A stretch of 54,351 bases of DNA, counting the filler, from Heptranchias perlo (Eukaryota), in assembly GCF_035084215.1 (NCBI RefSeq). It is 2 parts of 2 records of this genome, joined end to end, with 100 filler letters (N's around TTAATTAATTAA, not from the genome) between each part and the next. Parts side by side here need not be neighbours in the genome. Positions count along the whole stretch, not along the records: positions 26,174 to 54,351 come from NC_090333.1; 1 more part is not named here. One strand, 5' to 3'. Positions 13,046-45,900 of the stretch are shown here, piece by piece. The translations under genes and the position numbers were made by a program. The notes beneath the pieces were generated by a model. The model was not told the origin of the DNA, ran no database searches, and saw only the letters and a program-made list of their open reading frames with translations. Position 1 is the stretch's first letter, and every line of letters begins with the position of its first letter.

Positions 13046-13760
13046 ATAAGACCATAAGAGATAGGAGCAGGAGTAGGCCATTCGGCCCCTCGAGCCTGCT
13101 CCGCCATTTAACGAGATCATGGCTGATCCGATTTTTACCTCAACTCCACTTTCCCGCCCTTTCCCCATATCCTTTGACTCCCTCGCAGATCAAAAATTTA
13201 TCTAACTCAGCCTTGAATGTATTCGATGACTCAGCCTCCACAGCTTTTTGGGGTAAAGAATTCCAAAGATTCACGACCCTCTGGGAGAAGAAATTCCTCC
13301 TCATTTCCGTCTTAAACGGGCGACCCATTATTCTGAGACTATACCCCCTAGTTTTAGATTCCCCCATGAGGGGTAACATCCTCTCAGCATCTACCCTATC
13401 GAGTCCCCTCAGAATCTTGTATGTTTCAATAAGATCTCCTCTCATTCTTCTAAACTCCAATGAATATAGACCCAACCTGTTCAATCTTTCCTCATAAGAC
13501 AACCCTTCCATACCCGGAATCGACCTAGTGAACCTTCTCTGAACTGCCTCCAATGCAAGTATGCCCTTCCTTAAATAAGGGCACCAGAACTGTACGCAGT
13601 ACTGCAGGTGTGGTCTCACCAGCACCCTGTACAGTTGTAGCATGACTTCCCCGCTTTTATACTCCATCCCCCGAGAAATAAAGGCCAATATTCCGTTTGC
13701 CTTCCGGATTACCTGCCGCACCTGTATGTTGACTTTTTGTGCTTCACGTACGAGGACAAA
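13046..13760 (-). mobile_element. CR1-clade LINE 3' fragment with an open ORF2 C-terminus (~200 aa)
   Basis: LYRVLVRPHLQYCVQFWCPY...LEAVQRRFTR...RGDLIETYKIL...RRNFFSQRVVNLWNSLP is the CR1 ORF2 C-terminus; 3' UTR tail present. Confidence 0.93.
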
Positions 13761-16700
13761 TCGGGGGCACCTCCAGTTTGTTAGGCGGTGGTCGCATCCT
13801 CGGGTCAGGGAGTGCTGCGGTAGCCCACGGGGTACTGTCAATGGCCCACCCCCATTCAAATTTTCCCATGTTGTGACGTGCGATTGGTGCAAGTGACAAA
13901 AGGAGAGGTTGGATAGGGTCGTGTGGTGGTTACGTTACTGGACTAATAATAGAGAACGTTAGTTCAAAACCCACCATGGCAGTTTTGAGAATTTGAATTG
14001 GAAATAAAAAGCTGGTATCAGTAAAAACGCCCATGAGGCTGTCGGATCGTAGAAACCCAACTGGTTCACTAATGTCCTTCAGAATCGTACAGCACAGAAG
14101 GAGGCCCTTTGGCCCTTCTCTTTGAAGGAGCTATCCAATTAGTACCACTGCCCCTGCCCTTTCCCCACAGCCTCAAACATTTTTCCCCTTCAAGTCGTTC
14201 CCTTTTGAAAGTTGCTATTGAATCTGCTTCCACCGCCCTTTCAGGCAGCGTATTCCAGATCAGAACTCGCTGCTTAAAAAAAATCTCATCTCCGCCTCTG
14301 GTACTTTTGCCAATGACCTTAAATCGGTGTCCTCTGGTTACCGGCCCTCCTTGTCACTTTAGTGGGAGCAAACCTGCCCTCCTTACCTGACTCCAAGGGC
14401 CTATATGCGATTCCAGTCTCGCATCAATACGGTTCTCTCTCACCCGCCCTCTGAAACGGTCCCGCGAACCAGTTCTGTTGTATTAGAGGTGGGCAATAAA
14501 CCTCCGGCTTTGCACCCAGAGAATGAATTTTAAAAAAAGAGAACAGCAGAGCTGAGGAAATATCAAGAGGCACGTGGATCCAAGTCTGCAGCAACTGCAA
14601 ATATTTATTATGTCAGCTTTGTACAGAGGCGCTCAATGCAGCTACAACACCGACGTGGCACAGCTGGAAGAGACGGCGTGAGGTTCGTCTTCCAGCGGCT
14701 TGAGTCTTTTGCGACATCGGCACATCTGAGAAGGGAGAGTGGGATGTCGTGACGTACCAGAGGCGGGCGGAGGAAGACGCCTCACTCGGGGGAGCTGACG
14801 CGAGCAGAGGTCGATCCCCAGCGAATGGGGCGGTGCTCGGCTGTGTCAGGCTAATTCGTCAGCTGTTCTGTTGTTAGTTCAGCTCCGGTCGTAATTAGAC
14901 ACGAGTAGAAAAAAGGTGCGTAGCCCAGTGGTGCAGAGCTTTGTGGTATTAAAGCACGGGGTTGCGGACTAGTAGGATAATAGGCCTGGCGTCCATGATT
15001 TACCAACCCCCTCCCCATCAAATCTCTCCCCATCTTTTCTGAAGGTAGGGTGCCAAGTGTGTGAGCCTCGATGCTCAGTGCCAGCGGACTATTGAACCAC
15101 GCAGAGCATCGCAGCTGAGGCCCCCCCAGGGCTGTCCTCGCCCAATGGCACACCTGTGCGCTTTCCAGCAGGGGGTGTCACTGAACAGCAATCAGGAGCA
15201 GGAGCTCTGGCTCATTGTCCCCTTTCCTTATGCCCAGGGGGACTGAGGATAACAACCCTATCATTGCCATGCTCACTCCTACAGGTAATCTGGCACCTCA
15301 GTGCAGACTGGGCATCGAACCTGGCACCTCCTGGTCTGTATGGTTGACTACCACAATGCGGGGGGGGGAGCAGTTACCCCCTTAGTGTTTGGAAGAGCTT
15401 ACTGCATAGACCCAAATTGGTAGGATCTCAATATCCAGCACCTCTACCTCTCCCCTTCACTCACGCTGCCTGCATTCACAAGGATGTGGGGCAACTGGGC
15501 TACTGCACAGCTGACCACTTTTTTGCACAGAATTACTGCTCCATGCCGGTGTTTATGCTCCACACGAGCCTCCTCCCACCTTACTTTATCTCACCCTATC
15601 AGTATAACCTTCTATTCCCTTCGCCCGGATGCGTTTATCTAGCATCTACACTAATCATCACAACCACTCCATATGGTAACAAGTTCCACATTCTCACCAT
15701 GCTCTTGAGCAAAGAAGTTTCTCTTGGCCTCTGGGATTCTCAACAGTAATAAATTTAGATTTATAACGAGCAGGGGGGAGTCCTATAACCAAGTCTCTTT
15801 TTGACAGCATCTCCCAACCCCAGCGAGAGGGAGAAAAACACCATCGCCTCCAGGTTCACCTCCCGTGTCACACGCCACCCTGACCGGGAGATCGAGCGGC
15901 CGCTCTTTCGTCGTCGCTGGGTCAAAACCCCGGAGTTCCCCTCCCATCGTCGTGGGTCCACCTTCTCGTGGGCAACAGATGTGGCCCTGCCAGCCTTACC
16001 CACACTGCCAACATAATGACCTTCACCCTTACTTATGAGAAAATGTCGCAAGTGTCCCCACTGACCCACCCGGGACGAACGGGAGGTGGGCAAACCACAG
16101 CCGTTGACCCCCCCATCTCATGTTGCCACAGAGACTCCTCCAGGTTGATGAGATACAGAAGGGTACATTTTTCACTTGCCCCTCAATAGCAACTTGATCA
16201 GGAATCTGTCAGACCTGCTATTTGCCATTCATTATGGCAGTATGGCTGTTCCTATTAAATCCCCCTCCTTCCCCCCCAAACAAAAATCCCTCTCCTCCTT
16301 CACAAATTGAAGTAGCAATAACTAGGGCTAGGTTACAGGCAATTCTCATCCATGTTTTCAAATCCCTCAATGGCCTCGCCCCTCCCTTTCTCTGTAACCT
16401 CCTCCAGCCCTACAACCTTCTGCACTCCTCCAATTCTGGCCTCTTGCGCATCCCCCGATTTTAATCGCCCCCACCATTGGCGGCCGTGCCTTCAGCTGCC
16501 TCGGCAATAAGCTCTGGAATTCCCTCCCTAAACCTCCCTCTCCTCCTTTAAGACGCTCCTTAAAACCTACCTCTTTGACCAAGCTATCGGTCACCTGTCC
16601 TAACATCTCCTTTTGCGGATCGGTGTCATCTTTTGTCTGATCATCGCTCCTGCGAGGCGCCTCGGGACGTTTTACTACATTAAAGGCACTGTATAAATGC

Positions 16701-18878
16701 AGGTCGTTGTTGTGAGAACAATGACCCATCAATTCAAGTCTTGATCACTGGAGTGAAATAACATTTCAGGTCGACGACCGTTTGGCAGAACTCCCAGTTT
16801 TTGTCTCACCCGGACAGGTGTCACCGGACAACGACCAGGCCAGCCACCGACAGAAGAGTGTTTGAAGCCAAAGGACATCATTGGTTCCGAAAGTGCCTGC
16901 AGGAGTTTCCCGATTGCCCCTGCCCTTGGAGATGCAAAAAAAAAAACACGGGAGGAAAGCCGTTTTTTTTATCCATTAGCTCAGGAGGTGGTAGAGAGAG
17001 CCACCCTGCATTAGAAAATCTTTTCATCCCTTCTGTTACCATGGCAATTAAGACGCAATTCTCATTATAGAATCATCCCTGTCTATCACCTTCTCTTACC
17101 CGTCTCACCTACTCAACCCACCTTATTGCACATCCATTTATCCAGCTCACCTGGCTATTTCCAACCTGCCCCAACCCAAGGACAGGTAAACCCACCTTGA
17201 GCGGAACAACAAGCCACAAGCATTTTTCCTAATTAACTTCTTAAAATATTTTTTCCCTACACAGCCAACTGTAAAGTTCATTTACCCCCCCACCCAACTT
17301 CTCTTACTCTCCTAAAGTACGGATCCACAAGCACCTTGCCCAAATGAGCCTGGGCTGCGAGTGTGCCGGCAAGCTATTCAACCACAAGAGGCACACCAGC
17401 CAGCTCCGTCCTCGCCCGAGGTCCGCACCTGCACTTTCCCGCAGGAGTCACTGGACCGTTTCTCCCCACCCCCCCCCCCCCCCCCACCTTTAGCTAAGGG
17501 ACATTGAGGCAAATGGCAGTGTCCCGCCCTGGGGACCAGTTTACATTATCATAGAGCAGGGATGGATCCTGGGATCCTTTGGTCGATATAGCTCAGGTGT
17601 CGCAGTGTTATCTAGTGGGCAACTGGGGGGAATGTTTCTGGATCTATGCAGAAGATCTCAGATCACCAGGGCTGCCTCCCAAAAGTTCGGGGAAACCTCC
17701 CAATTGGACTGTCCCAATACTCAAGTCCAGATCACCACCGTCATTAGTATAAAAAGGGATGGGCACCTGCAACACTTCATAGCTCCATTGGGAGGGGGAG
17801 TGGGGGGGAAAAGAGAGAGAGAGAGAGAAAGGGGACAGTTTCAACTGAAGAAATCAAAATAATAATAATAATGAAAAAAAGGCACTCTCTTTGTAGTCCT
17901 AACGGCAATCGATTGCTCCGGGAGAAGCACATTCCCCCCTCCCAATGGAATTTCGGAACTTAGGGAGGGCAGAGTTCCGGCAGAAACAGCTCCCGCCCCC
18001 TATTCCGGTTCCTTCACCCCCCCGCCCCGCACCCCTCCCCAAACTTGTATCTTCATTTCATCCTCCCAGGCCCAGGGATTTCAGGGTCCAGGATTCAGTA
18101 TAGACAATTGGGAATTCTTATGTTCGTCCTGCAGAAAGTATCTCAAGAACCTTAAAAACAAAAAGGAGAGAGAGGGAGCCTCGTCCTTCAAAAGGAACAA
18201 AGAATGGAAATGAAAGAAACAGCTAATAATACAATGCCCGATAAGAGTTGTTAAAAGATTAAAGCTTTGGATTGCTCAACAAATCTTCAACCTCAAACTC
18301 CATCCATCAACAGTCACAATCTCCGCTCCCTCCTCCTCCTCCTCCTCCCCATTACAGACTTCACACAGATCAGCTGAGATTATGAATCACCCTCTCCCCC
18401 CAACCCCCCTGCCATACCCCAAACCCCCTCCAGTCCCCAACAGCAAAGGGATCCAAAACGTCAAAGAATATACGAAGAAGCAAAGCTTAAATACTGTTTT
18501 CCAGGCTTGACATACTGGGAGGNNNNNNNNNNNNNNNNNNNNNNNNNNNNNNNNNNNNNNNNNNNNNNNNNNNNNNNNNNNNNNNNNNNNNNNNNNNNNN
18601 NNNNNNNNNNNNNNNNNNNNNNNNNNNNNNNNNNNNNNNNNNNNNNNNNNNNNNNNNNNNNNNNNNNNNNNNNNNNNNNNNNNNNNNNNNNNNNNNNNNN
18701 NNNNNNNNNNNNNNNNNNNNNNNNNNNNNNNNNNNNNNNNNNNNNNNNNNNNNNNNNNNNNNNNNNNNNNNNNNNNNNNNNNNNNNNNNNNNNNNNNNNN
18801 NNNNNNNNNNNNNNNNNNNNNNNNNNNNNNNNNNNNNNNNNNNNNNNNNNNNNNNNNNNNNNNNNNNNNNNNNNNNNN

Positions 18879-26073: not shown

Positions 26074-26173
26074 NNNNNNNNNNNNNNNNNNNNNNNNNNN
26101 NNNNNNNNNNNNNNNNNTTAATTAATTAANNNNNNNNNNNNNNNNNNNNNNNNNNNNNNNNNNNNNNNNNNNN
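26074..26173. other. Artificial junction spacer N44-TTAATTAATTAA-N44
   Basis: Exactly 100 bp and symmetric, with a palindromic core giving stop codons in all six frames; typical of contig-concatenation linkers. Confidence 0.9.
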
Positions 26174-26189
26174 GTGAAGGAAATGGTGC

Positions 26190-26270
26190 TGACGTGTCTT
26201 TCGATGGTGATCACATTTCCATAGTGAGGGGCGGGCAGTGAGACTCTCACAAGCTGCAGGTTTATAAAGC
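26190..26270 (+). promoter_or_regulatory. Ig light-chain V promoter (variant octamer, GC box, TATA)
   Basis: ATTTCCAT at 26215-26222 (one mismatch to octamer ATTTGCAT), GGGGCGGG at ~26228-26235, and TTTATAAA at 26261-26268, about 55 bp before the leader ATG. Confidence 0.6.
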
Positions 26271-26322
26271 AGAGCCCAGTAAAGGGACAGTTTATCAGTA
26301 ACCAGGCACAGGAGCAGACACC

Positions 26323-26371
26323 ATGCCTTCAACCATCCAACTGATCTGGGCTCTGGCATTCTGCATCGCAG
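26323..26371 (+). CDS. Ig kappa-type light chain leader exon (MPSTIQLIWALAFCIAG)
   Basis: ACCATG start, hydrophobic signal peptide, and a phase-1 donor G|gtacga matching the V exon acceptor. Confidence 0.92.
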
Positions 26372-26561
26372 GTACGAATCTCTCTCCTTCCACGTTTAAT
26401 ATTTTCCTGCTGTTGATTTCTGTCCAATTCTACAGACTTGTGATTGAGGGGAAAATACTGGAACAGGACGACCGGTCACTGTCTGTGGAACAATATCTCT
26501 CATTTTACAGCGTGTTTCTGTGACAGTTCTTAATTCACTTTGTTTCTCTCTTTCCCCTCAG

Positions 26562-26859
26562 GTATCAGTGGGGATATCATCATGACCCAGTCCCCTCCGG
26601 TGGTCTCAGTGAGCCCGGGACAGACCGCAACCATCTCCTGTACGGCCAGCGCATCCGTTAGCAGCTATGTTGCTTGGTACCAGCAGAAAACCGGACAGAA
26701 ACCCACTCTCCTGATCTATGGAGCAACAACTCGATTCACAGGAACATCCGACCGTTTCAGCGGTCGTCAAGAGTCCACGAAGTTCTACCTGACCATCAGC
26801 AATGTGCAGAACGAGGAATTCGCAGACTATTACTGTCAGCAGTATCAGAGCTACCCCCG
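26562..26859 (+). CDS. Ig light chain V segment, shark kappa (type III/NS4-like), germline unrearranged
   Basis: cctcag| acceptor; (G)[26 protein letters not shown]...WYQQ...LLIY...[11 protein letters not shown] with canonical Cys, Trp and YYC; followed directly by a 12-RSS. Confidence 0.95.
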
Positions 26860-26887
26860 CACTGTGAGACAGAGCCGTACAAAAACC
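26860..26887 (+). other. V recombination signal sequence, 12-bp spacer
   Basis: CACTGTG (26860-26866) + AGACAGAGCCGT (12 bp) + perfect nonamer ACAAAAACC (26879-26887). V-12/J-23 is the kappa configuration. Confidence 0.95.
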
Positions 26888-26900
26888 TCAATATACAGAT

Positions 26901-29900
26901 TCCCACCCCCTGTACTGACACATCCCACAGTGATATATAATATATAATAATGGGCACACAGTCCCACCCCCTGTACTGACACATCCCACAGTTATATATA
27001 ATATATAATAATGGACACACAGTCCCACCCCCTGTACTGACACATCCCACAGTTATATATAATATATAATAATGGACACACAGTCCCACCTCCTGTACTG
27101 ACACATCCCACAGTTATAGATAATATATAATAATGGACACACAGTCCCACCCCCTGTACTGACACATCCCACAGTTATATATAATATATAATAATGGACA
27201 CACAGTCCCACCTCCTGTACTGACACATCCCACAGTTATATATAATATATAATAATGGACACACAGTCCCACCTCCTGTACTGACACATCCCACAGTTAT
27301 ATATAATATATAATAATGGACACACAGTCCCACCTCCTGTACTGACACATCCCACAGTTATATATAATATATAATAATGGGCACACAGTCCCACCCCCTG
27401 TACTGACACATCCCACAGTTATATATAATATATAATAATGGACACACAGTCCCACCTCCTGTACTGACACATCCCACAGTTATATATAATATATAATAAT
27501 GGGCACACAGTCCCACCCCCTGTACTGACACATCCCACAGTTATATATAATATATAATAATGGACACACAGTCCCACCTCCTGTACTGACACATCCCACA
27601 GTTATATATAATATATAATAATGGACACACAGTCCCACCTCCTGTACTGACACATCCCACAGTTATATATAATATATAATAATGGACACACAGTCCCACC
27701 TCCTGTACTGACACATCCCACAGTTATATATAATATATAATAATGGACACACAGTCCCACCTCCTGTACTGACACATCCCACAGTTATATATAATATATA
27801 ATAATGGACACACAGTCCCACCTCCTGTACTGACACATCCCACAGTTATATATAATATATAATAATGGACACACAGTCCCACCCCCTGTACTGACACATC
27901 CCACAGTTATATATAATATATAATAATGGACACACAGTCCCACCTCCTGTACTGACACATCCCACAGTTATATATAATATATAATAATGGACACACAGTC
28001 CCACCCCCTGTACTGACACATCCCACAGTTATATATAATATATAATAATGGACACACAGTCCCACCTCCTGTACTGACACATCCCACAGTTATATATAAT
28101 ATATAATAATGGACACACAGTCCCACCTCCTGTACTGACACATCCCACAGTTATATATAATATATAATAATGGACACACAGTCCCACCTCCTGTACTGAC
28201 ACATCCCACAGTTATATATAATATATAATAATGGACACACAGTCCCACCTCCTGTACTGACACATCCCACAGTTATATATAATATATAATAATGGACACA
28301 CAGTCCCACCCCCTGTACTGACACATCCCACAGTTATATATAATATATAATAATGGACACACAGTCCCACCCCCTGTACTGACACATCCCACAGTTATAT
28401 ATAATATATAATAATGGACACACAGTCCCACCTCCTGTACTGACACATCCCACAGTTATATATAATATATAATAATGGACACACAGTCCCACCCCCTGTA
28501 CTGACACATCCCACAGTTATATATAATATATAATAATGGACACACAGTCCCACCCCCTGTACTGACACATCCCACAGTTATATATAATATATAATAATGG
28601 GCACACAGTCCCACCCCCTGTACTGACACATCCCACAGTTATATATAATATATAATAATGGACACACAGTCCCACCCCCTGTACTGACACATCCCACAGT
28701 TATATATAATATATAATAATGGACACACAGTCCCACCCCCTGTACTGACACATCCCACTGTTATATATAATATATAATAATGGACACACAGTCCCACCTC
28801 CTGTACTGACACACCCCACAGTTATATATAATATATAATAATGGGCACACAGTCCCACCCCCTGTACTGACACATCCCACAGTTATATATAATATATAAT
28901 AATGGGCACACAGTCCCACCCCCTGTACTGACACATCCCACAGTTATATATAATATATAATAATGGACACACAGTCCCACCCCCTGTACTGACACATCCC
29001 ACAGTTATATATAATATATAATAATGGACACACAGTCCCACCTCCTGTACTGACACATCCCACAGTTATATATAATATATAATAATGGACACACAGTCCC
29101 ACCCCCTGTACTGACACATCCCACAGTTATATATAATATATAATAATGGACACACAGTCCCACCTCCTGTACTGACACATCCCACAGTTATATATAATAT
29201 ATAATAATGGACACACAGTCCCACCTCCTGTACTGACACATCCCACAGTTATATATAATATATAATAATGGACACACAGTCCCACCTCCTGTACTGACAC
29301 ACCCCACAGTTATATATAATATATAATAATGGACACACAGTCCCACCCCCTGTACTGACACATCCCACAGTTATATATAATATATAATAATGGACACACA
29401 GTCCCACCTCCTGTACTGACACATCCCACAGTTATATATAATATATAATAATGGACACACAGTCCCACCCCCTGTACTGACACATCCCACAGTTATATAT
29501 AATATATAATAATGGACACACAGTCCCACCCCCTGTACTGACACATCCCACAGTTATATATAATATATAATAATGGACACACAGTCCCACCCCCTGTACT
29601 GACACATCCCACAGTTATATATAATATATAATAATGGACACACAGTCCCACCCCCTGTACTGACACATCCCACAGTTATATATAATATATAATAATGGAC
29701 ACACAGTCCCACCCCCTGTACTGACACATCCCACAGTTATATATAATATATAATAATGGACACACAGTCCCACCCCCTGTACTGGCACATCCCACAGTTA
29801 TATATAATATATAATAATGGACACACAGTCCCACCCCCTGTACTGACACATCCCACTGTTATATATAATATATAATAATGGACACACAGTCCCACCTCCT

Positions 29901-32900
29901 GTACTGACACACCCCACAGTTATATATAATATATAATAATGGACACACAGTCCCACCTCCTGTACTGACACATCCCACAGTTATATATAATATATAATAA
30001 TGGACACACAGTCCCACCCCCTGTACTGACACATCCCACAGTTATATATAATATATAATAATGGACACACAGTCCCACCCCCTGTACTGACACATCCCAC
30101 AGTTATATATAATATATAATAATGGACACACAGTCCCACCTCCTGTACTGACACATCCCACAGTTATATATAATATATAATAATGGACACACAGTCCCAC
30201 CTCCTGTACTGACACATCCCACAGTTATATATAATATATAATAATGGACACACAGTCCCACCCCCTGTACTGACACATCCCACAGTTATATATAATATAT
30301 AATAATGGGCACACAGTCCCACCCCCTGTACTGACACATCCCACAGTTATATATAATATATAATAATGGACACACAGTCCCACCTCCTGTACTGACACAT
30401 CCCACAGTTATATATAATATATAATAATGGACACACAGTCCCACCCCCTGTACTGACACATCCCACAGTTATATATAATATATAATAATGGACACACAGT
30501 CCCACCTCCTGTACTGACACATCCCACAGTTATATATAATATATAATAATGGACACACAGTCCCACCTCCTGTACTGACACATCCCACAGTTATATATAA
30601 TATATAATAATGGACACACAGTCCCACCCCCTGTACTGACACATCCCACAGTTATATATAATATATAATAATGGACACACAGTCCCACCCCCTGTACTGA
30701 CACATCCCACAGTTATATATAATATATAATAATGGGCACACAGTCCCACCCCCTGTACTGACACATCCCACAGTTATATATAATATATAATAATGGACAC
30801 ACAGTCCCACCCCCTGTACTGACACATCCCACAGTTATATATAATATATAATAATGGACACACAGTCCCACCCCCTGTACTGACACATCCCACTGTTATA
30901 TATAATATATAATAATGGACACACAGTCCCACCTCCTGTACTGACACACCCCACAGTTATATATAATATATAATAATGGGCACACAGTCCCACCCCCTGT
31001 ACTGACACATCCCACAGTTATATATAATATATAATAATGGGCACACAGTCCCACCCCCTGTACTGACACATCCCACAGTTATATATAATATATAATAATG
31101 GACACACAGTCCCACCCCCTGTACTGACACATCCCACAGTTATATATAATATATAATAATGGACACACAGTCCCACCTCCTGTACTGACACATCCCACAG
31201 TTATATATAATATATAATAATGGACACACAGTCCCACCCCCTGTACTGACACATCCCACAGTTATATATAATATATAATAATGGACACACAGTCCCACCT
31301 CCTGTACTGACACATCCCACAGTTATATATAATATATAATAATGGACACACAGTCCCACCTCCTGTACTGACACATCCCACAGTTATATATAATATATAA
31401 TAATGGACACACAGTCCCACCTCCTGTACTGACACACCCCACAGTTATATATAATATATAATAATGGACACACAGTCCCACCCCCTGTACTGACACATCC
31501 CACAGTTATATATAATATATAATAATGGACACACAGTCCCACCTCCTGTACTGACACATCCCACAGTTATATATAATATATAATAATGGACACACAGTCC
31601 CACCCCCTGTACTGACACATCCCACAGTTATATATAATATATAATAATGGACACACAGTCCCACCCCCTGTACTGACACATCCCACAGTTATATATAATA
31701 TATAATAATGGACACACAGTCCCACCCCCTGTACTGACACATCCCACAGTTATATATAATATATAATAATGGACACACAGTCCCACCCCCTGTACTGACA
31801 CATCCCACAGTTATATATAATATATAATAATGGACACACAGTCCCACCCCCTGTACTGACACATCCCACAGTTATATATAATATATAATAATGGACACAC
31901 AGTCCCACCCCCTGTACTGGCACATCCCACAGTTATATATAATATATAATAATGGACACACAGTCCCACCCCCTGTACTGACACATCCCACTGTTATATA
32001 TAATATATAATAATGGACACACAGTCCCACCTCCTGTACTGACACACCCCACAGTTATATATAATATATAATAATGGACACACAGTCCCACCTCCTGTAC
32101 TGACACATCCCACAGTTATATATAATATATAATAATGGACACACAGTCCCACCCCCTGTACTGACACATCCCACAGTTATATATAATATATAATAATGGA
32201 CACACAGTCCCACCCCCTGTACTGACACATCCCACAGTTATATATAATATATAATAATGGGCACACAGTCCCACCCCCTGTACTAACACATCCCACAGTT
32301 ATATATAATATATAATAATGGACACACAGTCCCACCCCCTGTACTGACACATCCCACAGTTATATATAATATATAATAATGGGCACACAGTCCCACCTCC
32401 TGTACTGACACACCCCACAGTTATATATAATATATAATAATGGACACACAGTCCCACCTCCTGTACTGACACATCCCACAGTTATATATAATATATAATA
32501 ATGGACACACAGTCCCACCTCCTGTACTGACACATCCCACAGTTATATATAATATATAATAATGGACACACAGTCCCACCCCCTGTACTGACACATCCCA
32601 CAGTTATATATAATATATAATAATGGACACACAGTCCCACCTCCTGTACTGACACATCCCACAGTTATATATAATATATAATAATGGACACACAGTCCCA
32701 CCCCCTGTACTGACACATCCCACAGTTATATATAATATATAATAATGGACACACAGTCCCACCCCCTGTACTGACACATCCCACAGTTATATATAATATA
32801 TAATAATGGACACACAGTCCCACCCCCTGTACTGACACATCCCACAGTTATATATAATATATAATAATGGACACACAGTCCCACCTCCTGTACTGACACA

Positions 32901-34903
32901 TCCCACAGTTATATATAATATATAATAATGGACACACAGTCCCACCTCCTGTACTGACACATCCCACAGTTATATATAATATATAATAATGGACACACAG
33001 TCCCACCCCCTGTACTGACACATCCCACAGTTATATATAATATATAATAATGGGCACACAGTCCCACCCCCTGTACTGACACATCCCACAGTTATATATA
33101 ATATATAATAATGGACACACAGTCCCACCTCCTGTACTGACACATCCCACAGTTATATATAATATATAATAATGGACACACAGTCCCACCCCCTGTACTG
33201 ACACATCCCACAGTTATATATAATATATAATAATGGGCACACAGTCCCACCCCCTGTACTGACACATCCCACAGTTATATATAATATATAATAATGGACA
33301 CACAGTCCCACCCCCTGTACTGACACATCCCACAGTTATATATAATATATAATAATGGACACACAGTCCCACCCCCTGTACTGACACATCCCACAGTTAT
33401 ATATAATATATAATAATGGACACACAGTCCCACCTCCTGTACTGACACATCCCACAGTTATATATAATATATAATAATGGACACACAGTCCCACCCCCTG
33501 TACTGACACATCCCACAGTTATATATAATATATAATAATGGACACACAGTCCCACCTCCTGTACTGACACATCCCACAGTTATATATAATATATAATAAT
33601 GGGCACACAGTCCCACCTCCTGTACTGACACATCCCACAGTTATATATAATATATAATAATGGACACACAGTCCCACCTCCTGTACTGACACATCCCACA
33701 GTTATATATAATATATAATAATGGACACACAGTCCCACCTCCTGTACTGACACATCCCACAGTTATATATAATATATAATAATGGGCACACAGTCCCACC
33801 CCCTGTACTGACACACCCCACAGTGATATATAATATATAATAATGGACACACAGTCCCACCCCCTGTACTGACACATCCCACAGTTATATATAATATATA
33901 ATAATGGGCACACAGTCCCACCCCCTGTACTGACACACCCCACAGTTATATATAATATATAATAATGGACACACAGTCCCACCCCCTGTACTGACACATC
34001 CCACAGTTATATATAATATATAATAATGGACACACAGTCCCACCTCCTGTACTGACACACCCCACAGTTATATATAACATATAATAATGTACACACAGTC
34101 CCACCTCCTGTACTGACACATCCCACAGTTATATATAATATATAATAATGTACACACAGTCCCACCTCCTGTACTGACACACCCCACAGTTATATATAAT
34201 ATATAATAATGGACACACAGTCCCACCTCCTGTACTGACACATCCCACAGTTATATATAATATATAATAATGGACACACAGTCCCACCTCCTGTACTGAC
34301 ACATCCCACAGTTATATATAATATATAATAATGGGCACACAGTCCCACCCCCTGTACTGACACATCCCACAGTTATATATAATATATAATAATGGACACA
34401 CAGTCCCACCTCCTGTACTGACACATCCCACAGTTATATATAACATATAATAATGGGCACACAGTCCCACCCCCTGTACTGACACATCCCACAGTTATAT
34501 ATAATATATAATAATGGACACACAGTCCCACCTCCTGTACTGACACATCCCACAGTTATATATAATATATAATAATGTACACACAGTCCCACCTCCTGTA
34601 CTGGCACATCCCACAGTTATATATAATATATAATAATGGACACACAGTCCCACCTCCTGTACTGGCACATCCCACAGTTATATATAATATATAATAATGG
34701 ACACACAGTCCCACCTCCTGTACTGACATATCCCACAGTTATATATAATATATAATAATGGACACACAGTCCCACCTCCTGTACTGGCACATCCCACAGT
34801 TATTTATAATAGATAATAATGGACACACAGTCCCACCCCCTGTACTGACACATCCCACAGTTATATATAATATATAATAATGGACACACAGTCCCACCTC
34901 CTG
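26901..34903. repeat. 61-bp minisatellite, ~131 copies, filling the V-J interval
   Basis: Unit GGACACACAGTCCCACC(T/C)CCTGTACTGACACATCCCACAGTTATATATAATATATAATAAT; the register shifts by 1 per 60-nt line; highly homogeneous. Confidence 0.98.
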
Positions 34904-35129
34904 GAGGGAGAGAGGGTAAGGAACGGGGAGAGGGAGAGAGGGTGAGGGAGGGAGGGAGAAGGTGAGGGAGGGAGGGGGAGAGGGAGAGAGGGTGAGGGAC
35001 GGGGAGTGGGAGAGGGAGAGAGGGTGAGGGTGAGGGAGGGAGGGGGAGAGAGGGAGAGAGAGGGAGAGGGTGAGGGAGGGGGAGAGGGAGAGAGGGAGAG
35101 AGGGTGAGGGAGGGGGAGAGGGGGAGAGG
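34903..35129. repeat. Polypurine (GA/GGA-rich) low-complexity tract
   Basis: About 225 bp, almost entirely G/A on the + strand (GAGGGAGAGAGGGTGAGG-like units). Confidence 0.9.
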
Positions 35130-35146: not shown

Positions 35147-35185
35147 GGATATTGTACAGCTCCTGCACTGTCAGCTCTCAGTGTG
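35147..35185 (-). other. J recombination signal sequence, 23-bp spacer, non-consensus nonamer
   Basis: + strand GGATATTGT (35147-35155) + 23 bp + CAGTGTG (35179-35185) abutting J; reads CACACTG-23-ACAATATCC on the minus strand. Confidence 0.88.
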
Positions 35186-35220
35186 GGTTACGTTCGGTAA
35201 AGGAACCAAGCTCAGACTCA
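35186..35220 (+). CDS. Ig light chain J segment (VTFGKGTKLRL)
   Basis: FGxGT motif; phase-1 donor A|gtgagt compatible with the C exon. Confidence 0.95.
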
Positions 35221-36417
35221 GTGAGTAAATTTACTAACCATTATTAACCCGTTAAATGCTGAACCTTTCTCACACACCAATGCTGAATACTCGAAGGTGT
35301 TGGTGAGGAGCTGCGGTGAATGAAATGGTTCATTGAAGAGTACTTTGTATGACAGGGTCCCAGGCTGTACTTTCTTTAGTTCCACTCCCCCCTTCGACCA
35401 GCAAAGTATAAGTAACAAACTTTTACCGAGAGTGTGGAGGAGATCTGGGCGTTTGCAGACTGCAGTCACATTCCTGCACCATTGAGTGGAATAACTCACT
35501 GGAATCCTGGCAGTCTCAGTGCCAACAGACACGGGCAGAGTGTGGGGTGAGCCCTGGGCACTCTGTGCCCTGTAGGACTCTCTGATGTAACTGAGCACAG
35601 CATCAGCACAGTGAGACAAGCACAGAGGTCCCACCTCGAAACACACAACTCTCCTCCAGCTTTAACTGGGAGATCTGTCCAGTCCCCCGTTACCTGGTGT
35701 CCAAGTTCTGCTCACAAACGGGTACAGCAGGGCTCTCAATCGATTGGATTCATGTTCAAGGGGTTTGGGGAGACTCTCAGTTGCTTTGTCTTTGGGTCGA
35801 ATCCAGGTCGATATTTACCCCAAAAACCAACATCGCTAAAAATGGCCATTTATCTCATTGCTGTTTGTGGGATCTTGCTGTGCACAAATTGGCTGCCACA
35901 TTTCCCACATTACAACAGTGACTACACTTCAGAAAAAGTACTTCATTGGCTGTAAAGCACTTTGGGCGGTCCTGGGATTGTGAAAGGTGCCATAAAAATA
36001 CAAGTTCCTCCCATTCTTTTGATGAACTGGGGTCTCAGACAATTCCCCTGTTTAAATCTGACCCGGCAGAAAATCCCCCCAGAAAACTGATTAATATTGG
36101 CCTGATTTGTCTGCGTGTTTATTAGACGTGACAGACCAGACAGGGAGAGTTTCACCAGCAACAAAGGACGTTCCATTAGTGCCCGTCCCACTTTCCCGAT
36201 CGACTTACGACATTCTTACAGGTAAACAATCTCTGCCCACTGCCATCGACCGGTTCCATATCACCCCTCTAGACTATGGGCATACCCGTGATCTGCTCCC
36301 CTCCTCTCTCCTGAAGGCACTGCCTCTGGCTGGGGTAAAGCTCCACCTTCCCCAAGTGGGGTCGTTCCTCCAAGTCTGAGCCCGGAGGGTGAGCGCGGCA
36401 GGCTATTCGACCATGAG

Positions 36418-38428: not shown

Positions 38429-39989
38429 AGTACACACACACAGATGTGTCACATTAAGTTGTACGACTGACACTAACACCTTCCCCAGCCTGTCTGCTCA
38501 GGAGCAGGTTTCTGCACCGTGAACATGTGTCTCATTACATATTCATGACACCGGGTTCATTTGCATTTCTTTTCCCATTACTTGCCTTTCTCTTCAGCCT
38601 TTTAAAGTAAAGTCTGAGCCCATTTCCCCCCAGACTCTGGGCCTTTTCCATTTTGGGATGTTGGTTGTTTTAAGATGGTGTTTCGAGGGGCCATTCCCGA
38701 GGGTCTGTGACACAGGAAGTGCTGTTGTCTGACAGTTATTCCTTGTATTCACCACCCCAGCTCCGTGCAGCTCTCCCGGTCGATCTGCTCTGAATGGAGA
38801 CAGGACACTGGCTGCCTGCCGTAGTCACAAGACTGTGACCCGCCCAGCTCCCCAATGGCATGTGGGCACTGAGACACACACACCAGGAGGAGCCCAGCTT
38901 CATTCCCTGGTCCGTGCCGAGGAACAGGAGGAGGCCATTCAGCCCCTCCAGCCTGTTCCTCCATTGAATGAGATCATGACTGGTCTGTCCCTGATCTCCA
39001 TTTACCCTCCTTTGCTCCATATCCTCGATACCCTCCCCCAACAAAAATCGATCCATCTCAGTACTGAAAGCTCCTATTGACCCCCACCATCCACAGCCTT
39101 TTGGGGGAGGGGGTTCCAGATTTCCACTCCCCCTTGAGTGAAAAAGTGCTTCCTGATTTCACCCCTGAATGGCCAGGCTCGAATTACAGAGAATTACATC
39201 GAATTTACAGCACAGAAACAGGCCATTCGGCCCAACAGTAGTGTTAGGATTGTGTCCCCTTGTTCTGGGGGGGTTGCCGCTGAGGAGCAGCCGTTGGACT
39301 TGGTGCCCCCTCTAAATGAGGGAGGGGGATCCTGCTCCTGATTGCCATCCAGTGACACCCCCCTTCTCTCCCCCAACACCCCCCACTGTTGAAGGCAATG
39401 GTTTCAGGAGATGAGGGGAGAATGAACACAGAAACACAGTGAGGGCCAGTCCCTGTGTTATCTTGTCCCCCTCTTACCCTGTGTGGGGGGTTTCATAGAA
39501 TCACAGAATCATACAGCACAGAAGGAGGCCATTCGGCCCATCCTCCCTATGCTAGCTCTTTGAAAGAGCTATCCAATTAGTCTCACTCCCCTGCTCTTTC
39601 CCCATAGCCCCGACATTTTTTCCCTTTTCAAGTATTTATTCGGTTCCCTTTTGAAAGTTACTATTGAATCTTCCTCCCCCCACCCTTTCAGGCCGTGTGT
39701 TCCAGATCACAACAACTCACTGAGCAAAACAATTTCTCCATCTCTCCTCTCTGGTTCTTTACCAATTACCTCAAACCCGTTACCTCTGGTTACCGACCCT
39801 CCTGCCACTGGAAACAGTTCCTCCCGATTTGCTCCATTAAAACCCTTCATGATTTTGAGCACCTCTATTAAATCTCCCCTTGACCTTCTCTGCTCTCAGG
39901 GTCGTCTCAATAACACCACACAGTTTTGCTGGCCCGTTTTACTGGCTGTTCATTTTATGCTCTCCCCTCATGGGATCAGACTCTGTCGA

Positions 39990-40797: not shown

Positions 40798-41126
40798 CCC
40801 GAGAGAAGGTTCAACCATCGCTGACCCTGATGCCCCCCTCCCCGGAGGAGGTCTCGGCCAAGGGCACTGCCACCCTGGTGTGCCTCGTCGATCACTTCTA
40901 CCCCGACGCTGTGGGGGTGGAGTGGAAGAAGGACGGGGCGGCCATTTCGGGCGGGGTTCAGACCAGTGACTACCTGCGAGCTTCGGACAACACCTACAGT
41001 GTCAGTAGCCTGCTGACCCTCTCCGGCTCCGACTGGAAGTCTGACGCCAGCTTCTCCTGCGCCATCACCCACGAGACCCTTCAGTCTCCCCTCAGCAAGA
41101 GCATCAGGAGAACAGAATGTTCATAG
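40798..41126 (+). CDS. Ig light chain constant exon, shark kappa type (REKVQPSLTLMPPSPEEVSAKGTATLVCLVDHFYP...FSCAITHETLQSPLSKSIRRTECS*)
   Basis: ctttcag| acceptor in phase 1; C1-set motifs ATLVCL-FYP-W-YSVSSLL-FSC-H; penultimate Cys for the H-L disulfide; TAG at 41124-41126. Confidence 0.96.
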
Positions 41127-41282
41127 AGCGTCAGAGACAGTCCACAGAGGAGACGGAACCTTAAATATAACAGGGGGCGAGTGGGGAGGGCAAAGGTCAT
41201 TGTCAGCACTGCATTTCCACTCTCTTCCTTATCGTGATTGGGTCTGAGACGCTTCTCAGGTTGGGGGTTAAGGCACATTATT

Positions 41283-42096
41283 GGGACAGTGTAGAGGGAG
41301 CTTTACTCTGTATCTAACCCGTGCTGTACCTGCCCTGGGAGTGTTTGATGGGACAGTGTAGAGGGAGCTTTACTCTGTATCTAACCCGTGCTGTACCTGC
41401 CCTGGGAGTGTTTGATGGGACAGTGTAGAGGGAGCTTTACTCTGTATCTAAACCGTGCTGTACCTACCCTGGGAGTGTTTGATGGGACAGTGTAGAGGGA
41501 GCTTTACTCTGTATCTAACCCGTGCTGTACCTGCCCTGGGAGTGTTTGATGGGACATTGTAGAGGGAGCTTTACTCTGTATCTAACCCGTGCTGTACCTG
41601 TCCTGGGAGTGTTTGATGGGACAGTGTAGAGGGAGCTTTACTCTGTATCTAAACCGTGCTGTACCTGCCCTGGGAGTGTTTGATGGGACAGTGTAGAGGG
41701 AGCTTTACTCTGTATCTAACCCGTGCTGTACCTGCCCTGGGAGTGTTTGATGGGACAGTGTAGAGGGAGCTTTACTCTGTATCTAACCCGTGCTGTACCT
41801 GCCCTGGGAGTGTTTGATGGGACAGTGTAGAGGGAACTTTACTCTGTATCTAACCCGTGCTGTACCTACCCTGGGAGTGTTTGATGGGACAGTGTAGAGG
41901 GAGCTTTACTCTGTATCTAACCCGTGCTGTACCTGCCCTGGGAGTGTTTGATGGGACAGTGTAGAGGGAGCTTTACTCTGTATCTAACCCGTGCTGTACC
42001 TGCCCTGGGAGTGTTTGATGGGACAGTGCAGAGGGAGCTTTACTCTGTATCTAACCCGTGCTGTACCTGCCCTGGGAGTGTTTGATGGGACAGTGT
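41283..42096. repeat. 67-bp tandem repeat, ~12 copies, in the putative Ig C 3' UTR
   Basis: Unit GGGACAGTGTAGAGGGAGCTTTACTCTGTATCTAACCCGTGCTGTACCTGCCCTGGGAGTGTTTGAT. Confidence 0.96.
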
Positions 42097-42111
42097 CGAC
42101 TTGTGATGCCA

Positions 42112-42117
42112 AATAAA
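42112..42117 (+). terminator. Candidate polyadenylation signal of the light-chain transcript
   Basis: First AATAAA I can find after the C stop codon. Confidence 0.6.
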
Positions 42118-42915
42118 ACCTCTCTCAGACCCTGAAGACTGTCAGCTGAGCAAAAATAATGTTAAACACGGAAGTCCCCGCTTCAGTAAGACCAGACCTC
42201 CTTCCTGCTCACCCTGCAGTTATAATTTAAGGTTTTGTCACCGTTTAAAGGGACAGGATTCTCCCATTATTGAGCAAATGCCCACAGCCGTTTTAATCAA
42301 TCTTCTCTCTCCCTGTGTATTTCTCCTACTCGTTGGGCTGTTTATTCAATTCTTTTTTCTGTAAATGTAAATGTGTAAAAGGTAATAAATGTTCAGAATA
42401 TTCAGTCTCCGTCTCGTGAGTGCTGTGGAAATGTCCCACCTCCCCCTCAGCTGGATTGGCTGCATTTCAGCAAGTGACTCCCCTGGTTGGGCTGTCAATC
42501 AATGCATCACCAGCTGATGATTTGATTAAAACCCAATTCTCAATCATTTCAACATTTTCAGTTTTCCCTCGAATCCAAAGACTATGTTTTCAGGATAAAG
42601 CACAAAGTGTACAAGTTATAAAACAGAAAATAAACTCCAAGCTGCTGGGATTAAATCATCAAAGGCCCAGAATTCACTCTTCACTCTGCACACTGGAGGT
42701 GTTGGTCCAGTCCAAGCTGGTGGGATCGCACTGTGCTCTGTGCTGACTGTCAGGGTCCAGTGTGAAATGGGCTCGGGGCAAAGTCAGGTCTGAAAGTCAC
42801 AGTCAGAACACCTCATTCTCTCTCCTTAATGTGTTGCTCGTGGTAACAGATCAAATCTATACCGAATCAGGTCTCCACTTCTCAGAGAGAGGAGGGGTCA
42901 GAGTATAACTGTGTA

Positions 42916-45900
42916 CATGCCCCTGAGTGTCAGTGTGACTGTTTCCCAGTACTGTCTGTAGGTGGATGTCCCTGACTGTCAGTGTGACTGTTACCCAGTA
43001 CTGTCGGTAGGTGCATGTCGCTGACTGTCAGTGTGACTGTTACCCAGTACTGTCTGTAGGTGGATGGCCCTGACTGTCAGTGTGACTGTTTCCCAGTACT
43101 GTCTGTAGGTGGATGTCCCTGACTGTCAGTGCGACTGTTACCCAGTACTGTCTGTAGGTGGATGGCCCTGACTGTCAGTGTGACTGTTTCCCAGTACTGT
43201 CTGTAGGTGGATGTCCCTGACTGTCAGTGCGACTGTTACCCAGTACTGTCTGTAGGTGCATGGCCACGACTGTCAGTGTGACTGTTACCCAGTACTGTCT
43301 GTAGGTGCATGTCCCTGACTGTCAGTGCGACTGTTTCCCAGTACTGTCTGTAGGTGCATGTCCCTGACTGTCGGTGTGACTGTTTCCCAGTACTGTCTGT
43401 AGGTGCATGTCCCTGACTGTCAGTGTGACTGTTACCCAGTACTGTCTGTAGGTGCATGTCCCTGAGTGTCAGTGTGACTGTTTCCCAGCACTGTCTGTAG
43501 GTGCATGGCCCTGACTGTCAGTGTGACTGTTACCCAGTACTGTCTGTAGGTGCATGTCCCTGAGTGTCAGTGTGACTGTTACCCAGTACTGACTGTAGGT
43601 GCATGGCCCTGAGTGTCAGTGTGACTGTTTCCCAGCACTGTCTGTAGGTGCATGGCCCTGACTGTCAGTGTGACTGTTACCCAGTACTGTCTGTAGGTGC
43701 ATGTCCCTGAGTGTCAGTGTGACTGTTACCCAGTACTGACTGTAGGTGCATGGCCCTGACTGTCGGTGTGACTGTTACCCAGTACTGTCTGTAGGTGCAT
43801 GGCCCTGACTGTCAGTGTGACTGTTACCCAGTACTGTCTGTTGGTGCATGGCCCTGACTGTCAGTGTGACTGTTACCCAGTACTGTCTGTAGGTGCATGG
43901 CCCTGACTGTCAGTGTGACTGTTACCCAGTACTGTCTGTAGGTGCATGGCCCTGACTGTCGGTGTGACTGTTACCCAGTACTGTCTGTAGGTGCATGGCC
44001 CTGACTGTCAGTGCGACTGTTACCCAGTACTGTCTGTTGGTGCATGGCCCTGACTGTCAGTGTGACTGTTACCCAGTACTGTCTGTAGGTGCATGTCCCA
44101 GACTGTCAGTGTGACTGTTTCCCAGTACTGTCTGTAGGTGCATGTCCCTGACTGTCAGTGTGACTGTTACCCAGTACTGTCTGTAGGTGGATGTCCTTGA
44201 CTGTCGGTGTGACTGTTACCCAGTACTGTCTGTAGGTGCATGTCCCTGACTGTCAGTGTGACTGTTACCCAGTACTCTCTGTAGGTGCATGTCCCTGCCT
44301 GTCGGTGTGACTGTTACCCAGTACTGTCTGTAGGTGGATGTCCTTGACTGTCGGTGTGACTGTTACCCAGTACTGTCTGTAGGTGGATGTCCTTGACTGT
44401 CGGTGTGACTGTTACCCAGTACTGTCTGTTGGTGGATGTCCCTGCCTGTCAGTGTGACTGTTACCCAGTACTGTCTGTAGGTGGATGTCCCTGACTGTCA
44501 ATGTGACTGTTTCCCAGTACTGTCTGTAGGTGCATGTCCCTGACTGTCAGTATGACTGTTACCCAGTACTGTCTGTAGGTGGAGGTCCCTGACTGTCGGT
44601 GCGACTGTTACCCAGTACTGTCTGTAGGTGCATGTCCCTGACTGTCAGTACGACTGTTTCTCAGTACTGTCTGTAGGTGGATGTCCCTGACTGTCGGTGC
44701 GACTGTTCCCCAGTACTGTCTGTAGGTGCATGTCCCTGACTGTCAGTATGACTGTTACCCAGTACTGTCTGTAGGTGCATGGCCCTGACTGTCGGTGCGA
44801 CTGTTACCCAGTACTGTCTGTAGGTGCATGTCCCTGTCAGTGTGACTGTTACCCAGTACTGTCTGTTGGTGGATGTCCCTGACTGTCGGTGCGACTGTGA
44901 CCCAGTACTGTCTGTTGGTGCATGTCCCTGACTGTCGGTGCGACTGTTTCCCAGTACTGTCTGTAGGTGCATGTCCCTGACTGTCGGTGCGACTGTTACC
45001 CAGTACTGTCTGTAGGTGCATGTCCCTGACTGTCGGTGCGACTGTTACCCAGTACTGTCTGTAGGTGCATGGCCCTGACTGTCGGTGCGACTGTTACCCA
45101 GTACTGTCTGTAGGTGGATGTCCCTGACTGTCGGTGCGACTGTTACCCAGTACTGTCTGTAGGTGCATGTCCCTGACTGTCAGTGCGACTGTTTCCCAGT
45201 ACTGTCTGTAGGTGCATGTCCCTGACTGTCAGTACGACTGTTACCCAGTACTGTCTGTTGGTGCATGTCCCTGACTGTCAGTACGACTGTTTCCCAGTAC
45301 TGTCTGTAGGTGCATGTCCCTGACTGTCGGTGCGACTGTTACCCAGTACTGTCTGTAGGTGCATGTCCCTGACTGTCAGTGTGACTGTTACCCAGTACTG
45401 TCTGTTGGTGCATGTCCCTGACTGTCAGTACCACTGTTACCCAGTACTGTCTGTAGGTGCATGTCCCTGACTGTCAGTACGACTGTTTCCCAGTACTGTC
45501 TGTAGGTGCATGGCCCTGACTGTCAGTGCGACTGTTACCCAGTACTGTCTGTAGGTGGATGTCCCTGACTGTCGGTGCGACTGTTACCCAGTACTGTCTG
45601 TAGGTGCATGGCCCTGACTGTCGGTGCGACTGTTACCCAGTACTGTCTGTAGGTGCATGGCCCTGACTGTCGGTGCGACTGTTACCCAGTACTGTCTGTA
45701 GGTGCATGGCCCTGACTGTCGGTGTGACTGTTACCCAGTACTGTCTGTAGGTGCATGTCCCTGACTGTCAGTGTGACTGTTACCCAGTACTGTCTGTTGG
45801 TGGATGTCCCTGACTGTCAGTGTGACTGTTACCCAGTATTGTCTGTGGGTGCATGTCCCTGACTGTCGGTGCGACTGTTTCCCAGTACTGTCTGTAGGTG

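What the first reader, a model, noticed from the sequence alone, without database searches (positions are those of the whole stretch)
26901..34903. Every unit of the V-J minisatellite reads as a degenerate 23-RSS: ~131 tandem pseudo-signals between V and J
Seen: within the 61-bp period, CACAGTT (6/7 to heptamer CACAGTG) is followed after exactly 23 bp by ACACAGTCC (6/9 to nonamer ACAAAAACC). The first unit has a perfect heptamer: CACAGTG 26926-26932, spacer 26933-26955, nonamer-like 26956-26964. A second perfect heptamer is at 33819-33825. All face the same way as the V 12-RSS, and the array starts 13 bp after its nonamer. Established: RAG pairs 12- with 23-spacer signals, needs the CAC, and same-orientation pairs recombine by inversion. 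Inference: the array may derive from an amplified RSS and could act as a RAG decoy or landing array that tunes or silences this cluster, or its expansion could be driven by RAG nicking. Caveat: the nonamer lacks the A-tract, and because one unit was amplified this is a single coincidence statistically, not 131.
Basis: partly seen in the sequence, partly recalled or inferred. Interest (0 to 1): 0.8.

Follow-up and report, generated by a model that had tools for sequence, protein, structure and literature searches.

The report
Signal-like minisatellite in working antibody gene
An 8-kb run of 131 copies of a 61-base repeat fills the gap between the V and J pieces of a shark-type antibody light-chain gene; each copy resembles a weak cutting signal, likely by chance, and the gene still joins V to J and is expressed, so the repeat is likely an ordinary passenger.

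Summary
The motif is real. All 131 units read heptamer+23+ACACAGTCC on the V-RSS strand (125 CACAGTT, 4 CACTGTT, 2 CACAGTG). 127 of 131 pass a published 'at most 4 mismatches' RSS filter; 1.3% of dinucleotide and 6.5% of trinucleotide shuffles do: one modest coincidence. By mammalian assay tables the heptamer is as usable as this gene's own V and J heptamers; the nonamer is outside the predicted top 1000, where J's ranks 7th. So the unit is a plausible weak cryptic 23-RSS. Silencing is refuted: RNA contigs join this V to this J and C at four in-frame junctions, with no inversion or array joint listed. No contig laid carries the G of the 'perfect' heptamers. The unit has no homology to the real RSSs, and tandem arrays fill 40.5% of the window. 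Best reading: a locus-specific minisatellite that stretched the V-J gap to 8.3 kb (nurse shark 0.5 kb) and is deleted in normal joining. Partial diversion of RAG is untested, not excluded. Side lead: an RS/kde-like signal behind C.

The parts
26323..26371 (+). Leader exon of an Ig light-chain gene (likely kappa / NS4 / type III)
   Evidence: ATG at 26323; RNA contig skips 190 letters GT..AG from here to the V exon
26562..26859 (+). V exon, open, expressed; no paralog at 85% or more among contigs laid
   Evidence: Translation; antibody light-chain V hits in PDB; RNA contigs with 0 other letters and flat DNA depth 65.2
26860..26887 (+). Genuine V 12-RSS: CACTGTG, 12, ACAAAAACC (15/16)
   Evidence: RNA junctions end at 26857-26862
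26901..34903 (+). 61-bp minisatellite, 131 full units; each holds a cryptic 23-RSS look-alike (heptamer at unit positions 26-32, A/T-run spacer, ACACAGTCC); 524 CAC on +, 2 on -; no CpG
   Evidence: V-to-array junction bridged by a DNA contig
28426..32207 (.). Higher-order duplication inside the array: 27 units at 28426-30072 identical to 30561-32207
   Evidence: real unequal exchange or assembly duplication, not resolved
34904..35129 (.). GA-rich simple repeat between the array and the J RSS
   Evidence: J-side DNA contigs run on into it
35147..35185 (-). Genuine J 23-RSS: CACACTG, 23, ACAATATCC (13/16), convergent with the V RSS
   Evidence: 0 other letters in DNA contigs
35186..35220 (+). 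J segment (FGKG motif), spliced to C
   Evidence: RNA contigs match 35188-35220 and go on with the first letters of the C exon
40798..41126 (+). C exon, open
   Evidence: loose ends behind J equal its start

Best explanation
The array is likely an ordinary locus-specific minisatellite that grew inside the V-J gap of a working light-chain cluster, and its unit likely resembles a weak 23-RSS by chance. Shown: V is joined to J and spliced to C in RNA, at four in-frame junctions. Inferred: RAG pairs the V 12-RSS (perfect nonamer) with the J 23-RSS across 8.3 kb and deletes the whole array with the signal circle; the array grew by slippage and unequal exchange; its copies draw at most low-level off-target cuts (inversion with the V RSS, or deletion from the J RSS to a convergent CAC) with no selected role.
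For: One 818-letter RNA contig runs V (274 letters, 0 differences), J (33 letters, 0 differences), then the C start. 4 of 4 loose-end rows behind the V end are J, 4 of 4 rows before J are this V, no strand-changing joint is listed; 4 of 4 junctions are in frame. V and J show one flat-depth DNA contig each, so no close paralog was seen that could be the source. The nonamer is not among the top 1000 of 262,144 predicted functional 23-RSS nonamers and fails the purine-A/T-purine motif at position 4, while the J nonamer is row 10 of that table. No homology of the unit to the real RSSs. The 'nonamer' overlaps the unit's second CACAGT, so the likeness rests on one spacing; 6.5% of trinucleotide shuffles pass. 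Tandem arrays make up 40.5% of the window, also in the J-C intron and behind the C stop. A 27-unit block duplication and more variants at the 3' end (0.95 versus 0.23-0.36 per unit) fit VNTR turnover.
Against: 127 of 131 units pass the filter that PMC11153149 used to remove very strong RSS-like sites; only 3 non-genuine sites do in the other 45.8 kb, and only 1.0-1.3% of mono- and dinucleotide shuffles. It is the only one of 5 long arrays in the window whose unit reaches 12/16 (others 6-9), and it is the one between V and J. Its heptamer+2 recombines in SARP-seq at 0.067%, against 0.099% and 0.034% for this gene's own V and J heptamers. At least four one-letter neighbours of the nonamer are in the top 1000 and its RIC term is estimated only about 4 units below J's. 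With 131 copies, 1% of J's strength per copy would divert over half of the events, and RNA contigs could not show that. All runs are from one sample.
Confidence: 0.7

Rival explanations
1. The array is an active RAG sink: 131 weak 23-RSSs next to the V 12-RSS capture a sizeable share of events, invert the V RSS away from V and kill the allele, so copy number tunes the output of this cluster (selected or not).
For: Passes the 4-mismatch filter in 127 of 131 units; heptamer in the range of the genuine ones; nonamer near functional ones; mouse gamma-satellite cryptic 23-RSSs were cut and recombined by RAG (PMC2193808); A/T-rich, CpG-free unit might be nucleosome-poor (inference from PMC12711392).
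Against: Gene is productively rearranged and expressed; no inversion joint or array-J joint among the listed loose ends and joints (weak, contigs drop rare forms). In mouse, cryptic sites are used at very low level and in convergent orientation, and inversional joining needed strong RSSs (PMC11153149 passages). Perfect heptamers not seen in contigs.
Confidence: 0.17
2. The unit descends from a real RSS (or a V end with its 23-RSS) that was moved into the gap and amplified, possibly with RAG nicks driving the expansion.
For: Exact 23 spacing, 1% chance under dinucleotide shuffles; array starts 13 letters after the V nonamer; germ-line RAG activity is reported in sharks (PMC2193156).
Against: Spacer is an A/T microsatellite-like run, 7 of 23 alike to the J spacer; no better alignment to V end or J region than 35% of random stretches; this cluster has no + strand 23-RSS to copy; variants fall in the heptamer too; RAG is not needed to explain block duplication.
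Confidence: 0.06
3. The array exists but its length and letters are partly an assembly product, so '131 copies, 8.3 kb, two perfect heptamers' overstates or misstates what the animal carries.
Against: V-to-array junction is bridged (38 letters into the array), head-to-tail joints of 61 are seen in 4 of 4 runs, and unit contigs are hundreds of times deeper than the flank; the J side matches with 0 differences. A long array is real; only its size is open.
Confidence: 0.07

Closest known systems
Cryptic 23-RSS in mouse gamma-satellite DNA (Cowell et al. 2003, PMC2193808; sections 15 and 19 read)
   Same: A tandem repeat whose unit holds a 23-RSS look-alike near the physiological score range; multiplied by repeat amplification, not by selection for joining.
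   Different: Gamma-satellite is pericentromeric and was shown to be cut by RAG; this array lies between a V and a J, 13 letters from a real RSS, and cutting is untested.
Nurse shark NS4 (kappa, type III) split V-J-C clusters (PMC2193156, PMC5192425, PMC2435157; passages read)
   Same: One V, one J, one C, same polarity, deletional joining, leader intron 190 versus 186 letters.
   Different: V-J gap 8326 letters versus 502-524; nearly all of it tandem repeat; no close paralog seen here versus about 60 genes in nurse shark.
RAG off-target (cryptic RSS) joining during scanning in mouse Igk/Igh (PMC11153149; passages read)
   Same: All 524 array CAC motifs on the + strand are convergent with the J RSS, the orientation in which low-level cryptic joins arise.
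VNTR minisatellites, including the human IGH D-JH minisatellite (recalled, from no call)
   Same: Locus-specific array with few variant positions, block duplication and end-biased variation, inside an antigen-receptor locus.
   Different: Unit here reads as a full heptamer-23-nonamer.
Mouse RS / human kappa-deleting element (PMC3014032 passage)
   Different: RS/kde is one signal 3' of C acting by deletion. The array is 5' of J and would act by inversion. A separate site at 42735 fits the RS/kde layout better.

Membership tests
Functional 23-RSS | Heptamer starting CAC, usable by RAG | tested here: met
   131 of 131 start CAC; CACAGTT+AT 0.067% of SARP-seq joints, 17-fold below CACAGTG+AT but between this gene's V and J values (12-RSS context, mammalian RAG)
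Functional 23-RSS | Spacer of 23 | tested here: met
   131 of 131, no indels
Functional 23-RSS | Nonamer that binds the RAG1 nonamer-binding domain (A-tract, or purine-A/T-purine at 4-6) | tested here: inconclusive
   6/9; C at position 4 fails the motif; absent from predicted top 1000; at least 4 one-letter neighbours present; RIC term about -45.0 by hand addition versus -41.1 for J
Functional 23-RSS | Full RIC score above threshold | not testable with these tools
   No RIC model on hand; heptamer and spacer terms could not be computed
Functional 23-RSS | Flanks a coding gene segment | tested here: not met
   Only 22 repeat letters lie between one nonamer and the next heptamer; no V/J homology in the unit
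Functional 23-RSS | Cleaved and joined by RAG in lymphocytes | not testable with these tools
   Only contigs were available; no such joint listed, which shows nothing about rare events
VNTR minisatellite | Head-to-tail units of tens of bases, highly alike, with few variant positions | tested here: met
   61 x 131, 98% matches, 13 variable positions
VNTR minisatellite | Locus-specific | tested here: inconclusive
   No other copy in the window; 3 of 68 X1 contigs fit only partly and one low-depth foreign flank is listed; no genome held
VNTR minisatellite | Copy number varies between alleles or individuals | not testable with these tools
   All runs from one sample, as contigs
Cartilaginous-fish kappa (NS4, type III) cluster | Single V-J-C, split, V 12-RSS and J 23-RSS, somatic joining | tested here: met
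   lambda genes are all germ-line joined and sigma has a longer CDR2 (PMC5192425 passage)
Cartilaginous-fish kappa (NS4, type III) cluster | Groups with named shark kappa chains in a tree | not tested
   One search returned only two mislabelled records (76-79% identity); no named shark sequences to build a tree

The most novel reading that the evidence does not exclude
A minisatellite has become a tandem battery of cryptic 23-RSSs inside the V-J gap of an apparently single-copy shark kappa gene; it captures a measurable share of RAG events as dead-end inversions or deletions, so that repeat copy number is a heritable dial on light-chain output and on isotype choice, next to an RS/kde-like deleting signal behind C.
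Probability: 0.1. Interest if true: 0.75.

Novelty: new member of a known kind. Interest (0 to 1): 0.3.

Why it matters
As it stands it is a minisatellite with a cryptic RSS, a known kind. What is worth keeping: shark miniloci are thought to rearrange over about 0.4-0.5 kb (PMC2435157, PMC2193156); here a cluster rearranges and is expressed across 8.3 kb and 131 look-alike signals. That is a ready natural test of how shark RAG finds its partner (distance, orientation, off-target use), with one V bait. If the array diverted many events, it would be a new way to regulate an antigen-receptor locus.

Tried and rejected
Whole-genome search for the unit: no genome held, so genome-wide abundance is untested. 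A 22-letter piece of the unit in metagenome contigs: 0 matches, uninformative for a vertebrate. Homolog search with C: 2 hits of 11 candidates, both labelled as bacterial and likely fish contamination, no use for isotype. Earlier findings: three look-ups, nothing shown. Run search listed no holder on record as RNA; four were guessed RNA, and the two laid show spliced joints. Copy number from contig depth: rejected, the tool says it is none, and unique depth differs 2.6 to 14.5 between like-sized runs. Germ-line-joined or short-gap paralog as the source of the RNA: not seen among contigs laid at 85% (V) and 80% (J), and the junctions vary. Unit as a 12-RSS for J: nonamer 3/9 at 12, 5/9 at 11, not in the top 1000. 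Unit as an exact dimer of a 30-mer: no rotation near 30 reached 24 of 61 matches; only the CACAGT core recurs. CpG silencing of the array: it holds no CpG. PMC12205992 (outline only), PMC2119260 (one reference line) and PMC7605257 (passages) gave nothing used. Paper searches (listings only) showed no report of an RSS-like minisatellite in a shark V-J gap; most subscription papers, including much shark Ig work, are not in the library.

Full report
Locus. The window holds one light-chain cluster on the + strand: leader 26323-26371, V 26562-26859, 12-RSS 26860-26887 (CACTGTG, 12, ACAAAAACC), J 23-RSS on the minus strand 35185-35147 (CACACTG, 23, ACAATATCC), J 35186-35220, C 40798-41126. No second V or C lies in the window. 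V matches antibody light-chain V domains in the PDB. Split V-J, 12/23 order, short CDR2 and a 190-letter leader intron point to cartilaginous-fish kappa (NS4, type III) (PMC2193156 passages; PMC5192425 passages); no tree was built, so the isotype is likely, not shown. The V-J gap is 8326 letters, of which 8003 are the 61-bp array and 226 a GA tract; nurse shark NS4 has 502-524.

Observation. All 131 full units are 61 long and read heptamer, 23, ACACAGTCC on the + strand: 125 CACAGTT, 4 CACTGTT, 2 CACAGTG (26926, 33819). The array holds 524 CAC on + and 2 on -. Contigs of two DNA and two RNA runs laid on 26174-26965 all read T at 26932 at the full depth listed, and the X1 contig that bridges V into unit 1 differs from the window at 4 letters. 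The two perfect heptamers are thus in the assembly but not in these contigs; contigs drop rare variants and 96 pieces were not shown.

Chance. With CAC intact, at most 4 mismatches, spacer 12 or 23, either strand (the filter PMC11153149 used to remove very strong sites; passage), 127 of 131 units pass. Outside the array 5 sites pass in 45.8 kb, 2 of them the real RSSs. Circular shuffles of the unit pass in 203, 256, 1290 and 2125 of 20000 for 1-, 2-, 3- and 4-letter words. The four other long arrays reach 6, 9, 8 and 9 of 16 (one copy each). So the likeness is a 1-in-80 to 1-in-10 event, counted once and noticed after the fact. It rests largely on the unit holding CACAGT twice, 31 letters apart: the 'nonamer' overlaps the second copy.

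How good a signal. In SARP-seq (PMC9723617, supplement rows; 12-RSS context, consensus nonamer) CACAGTT+AT makes 0.067% of joints, CACAGTG+AT 1.14%, this gene's V heptamer+2 0.099% and its J heptamer+2 0.034%. The array heptamer is therefore usable. In a 23-RSS nonamer screen (PMC12711392, abstract, Results parts 1-2 of 3, supplement rows) ACACAGTCC is absent from the predicted top 1000 of 262,144 and fails the purine-A/T-purine motif at position 4; the consensus is row 4 and the J nonamer row 10. Against a quick dismissal: at least four one-letter neighbours are listed (rows 28, 98, 362, 408). Adding single-letter RIC steps from that table by hand (-26.70, -0.65, -6.84, -10.80; the sum reproduces the listed -44.34 for one neighbour) gives about -45.0 for this nonamer, against -41.1 for J's, with a perfect heptamer and a mouse spacer. 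The full RIC could not be computed. The unit is a plausible weak cryptic 23-RSS.

Function. Two runs guessed as RNA show the leader spliced to V and J spliced to C, so they are RNA. In X8 one 818-letter contig carries V (274 letters, 0 differences), J (33 letters, 0 differences) and the start of C. Of the loose-end rows at the V end, 4 of 4 go on as J; of those before J, 4 of 4 are this V, one with substitutions. No strand-changing joint and no array-J joint is listed. The four junctions are all in frame. In DNA, V (85% cut-off) and J (80%) are each covered by one contig of flat depth, with RSSs in germ-line form, so no joined or short-gap paralog was seen. Silencing is refuted. Tuning is not: diverted alleles would give no productive RNA, and 131 copies at 1% of J's strength would already take over half of the events (arithmetic, not data). 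All runs come from one sample, which may be the source of the window.

Origin. The unit's 39-mer matches the J RSS at 18 of 39, spacer 7 of 23; local alignment to the V end or J region scores no better than 35% of 2000 random stretches. The spacer is mostly an A/T run. The array has 13 variable positions, a 27-unit block repeated 35 units later, and more variants in the last 21 units: the pattern of VNTR turnover (established knowledge, recalled), though the block may be an assembly duplicate. Tandem arrays cover 40.5% of the window, including the J-C intron, the region behind the C stop and 11.4 kb downstream. Short shark chromosomes are rich in simple tandem repeats (PMC10620051 passages). 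The unit looks locus-specific: no other copy in the window, and few foreign flanks among 68 X1 contigs, but no genome was held. Most minisatellites are locus-specific, so this does not argue for function.

Mechanism. Most likely (0.70): RAG pairs the two real RSSs and deletes the array; the copies are passengers with at most low-level off-target use. Shown: joining and expression. Inferred: origin by slippage and unequal exchange, low off-target rate. Rivals: active sink 0.17, amplified real RSS 0.06, length and letters partly assembly product 0.07.

Known kinds. A satellite whose unit is a RAG-usable cryptic 23-RSS is on record for mouse gamma-satellite (PMC2193808 sections 15 and 19), which also gives about 5 x 10^-4 passing cryptic sites per base, about 3% per 61 letters. 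Searches (listings only) showed no report of such an array in a shark V-J gap. Verdict: new member of a known kind, interest 0.3. The long working gap and the RS/kde-like site behind C are the parts worth following.

Noticed in passing
window 42735-42698 (-) and 35607-35613 (+): RS/kde-like layout: a perfect heptamer on the minus strand 1.6 kb behind the C stop with a 22 spacer and a 7/9 nonamer (14/16), in unique sequence, and a lone perfect + strand heptamer 387 letters into the J-C intron; joining them would delete C. Markov simulations of the 5.8-kb unique stretch gave such a minus-strand site in 11 of 1500, any such site in 37 of 1500 (after the fact; three + strand perfect heptamers lie in this intron). 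Kde/RS layout as in PMC3014032; one search listed no shark report. Not tested on reads.
   Followed up: partly
window 41126-42117: No poly(A) signal between the C stop and 42112, so the 3' UTR likely runs through the 67-bp array at 41282-42096; the length of the X8 contig fits an end at the start of that array (inference).
   Followed up: partly
window 26562-26859 and 35186-35220: V and J show no close paralog in the DNA contigs laid, unlike the roughly 60 kappa genes of nurse shark; framework 3 is unusual ([15 protein letters not shown]) yet confirmed in RNA with 0 differences.
   Followed up: partly
window 26074-26173: 100-letter gap with a 12-letter linker in its middle, 150 letters upstream of the ATG; a DNA contig runs 42 letters beyond 26174. 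Further N runs at 222-349 and 18523-18878.
   Followed up: no
window 26215-26222 and 38559-38566: Variant octamer ATTTCCAT in the promoter and a consensus octamer in the J-C intron, a possible enhancer site (consensus recalled).
   Followed up: no
window 42916-54351: A second very long array (49 bp x 234) starts 1.8 kb behind the C stop and runs off the window; 470 CAC on the minus strand, dominant unit only 9/16 as an RSS.
   Followed up: partly
window 1-26073: Many copies of a dispersed 300-450 bp repeat and a 264-codon frame at 13140-13934 (-) that looks like a retroelement remnant (recalled likeness, not searched); no other Ig segment.
   Followed up: no
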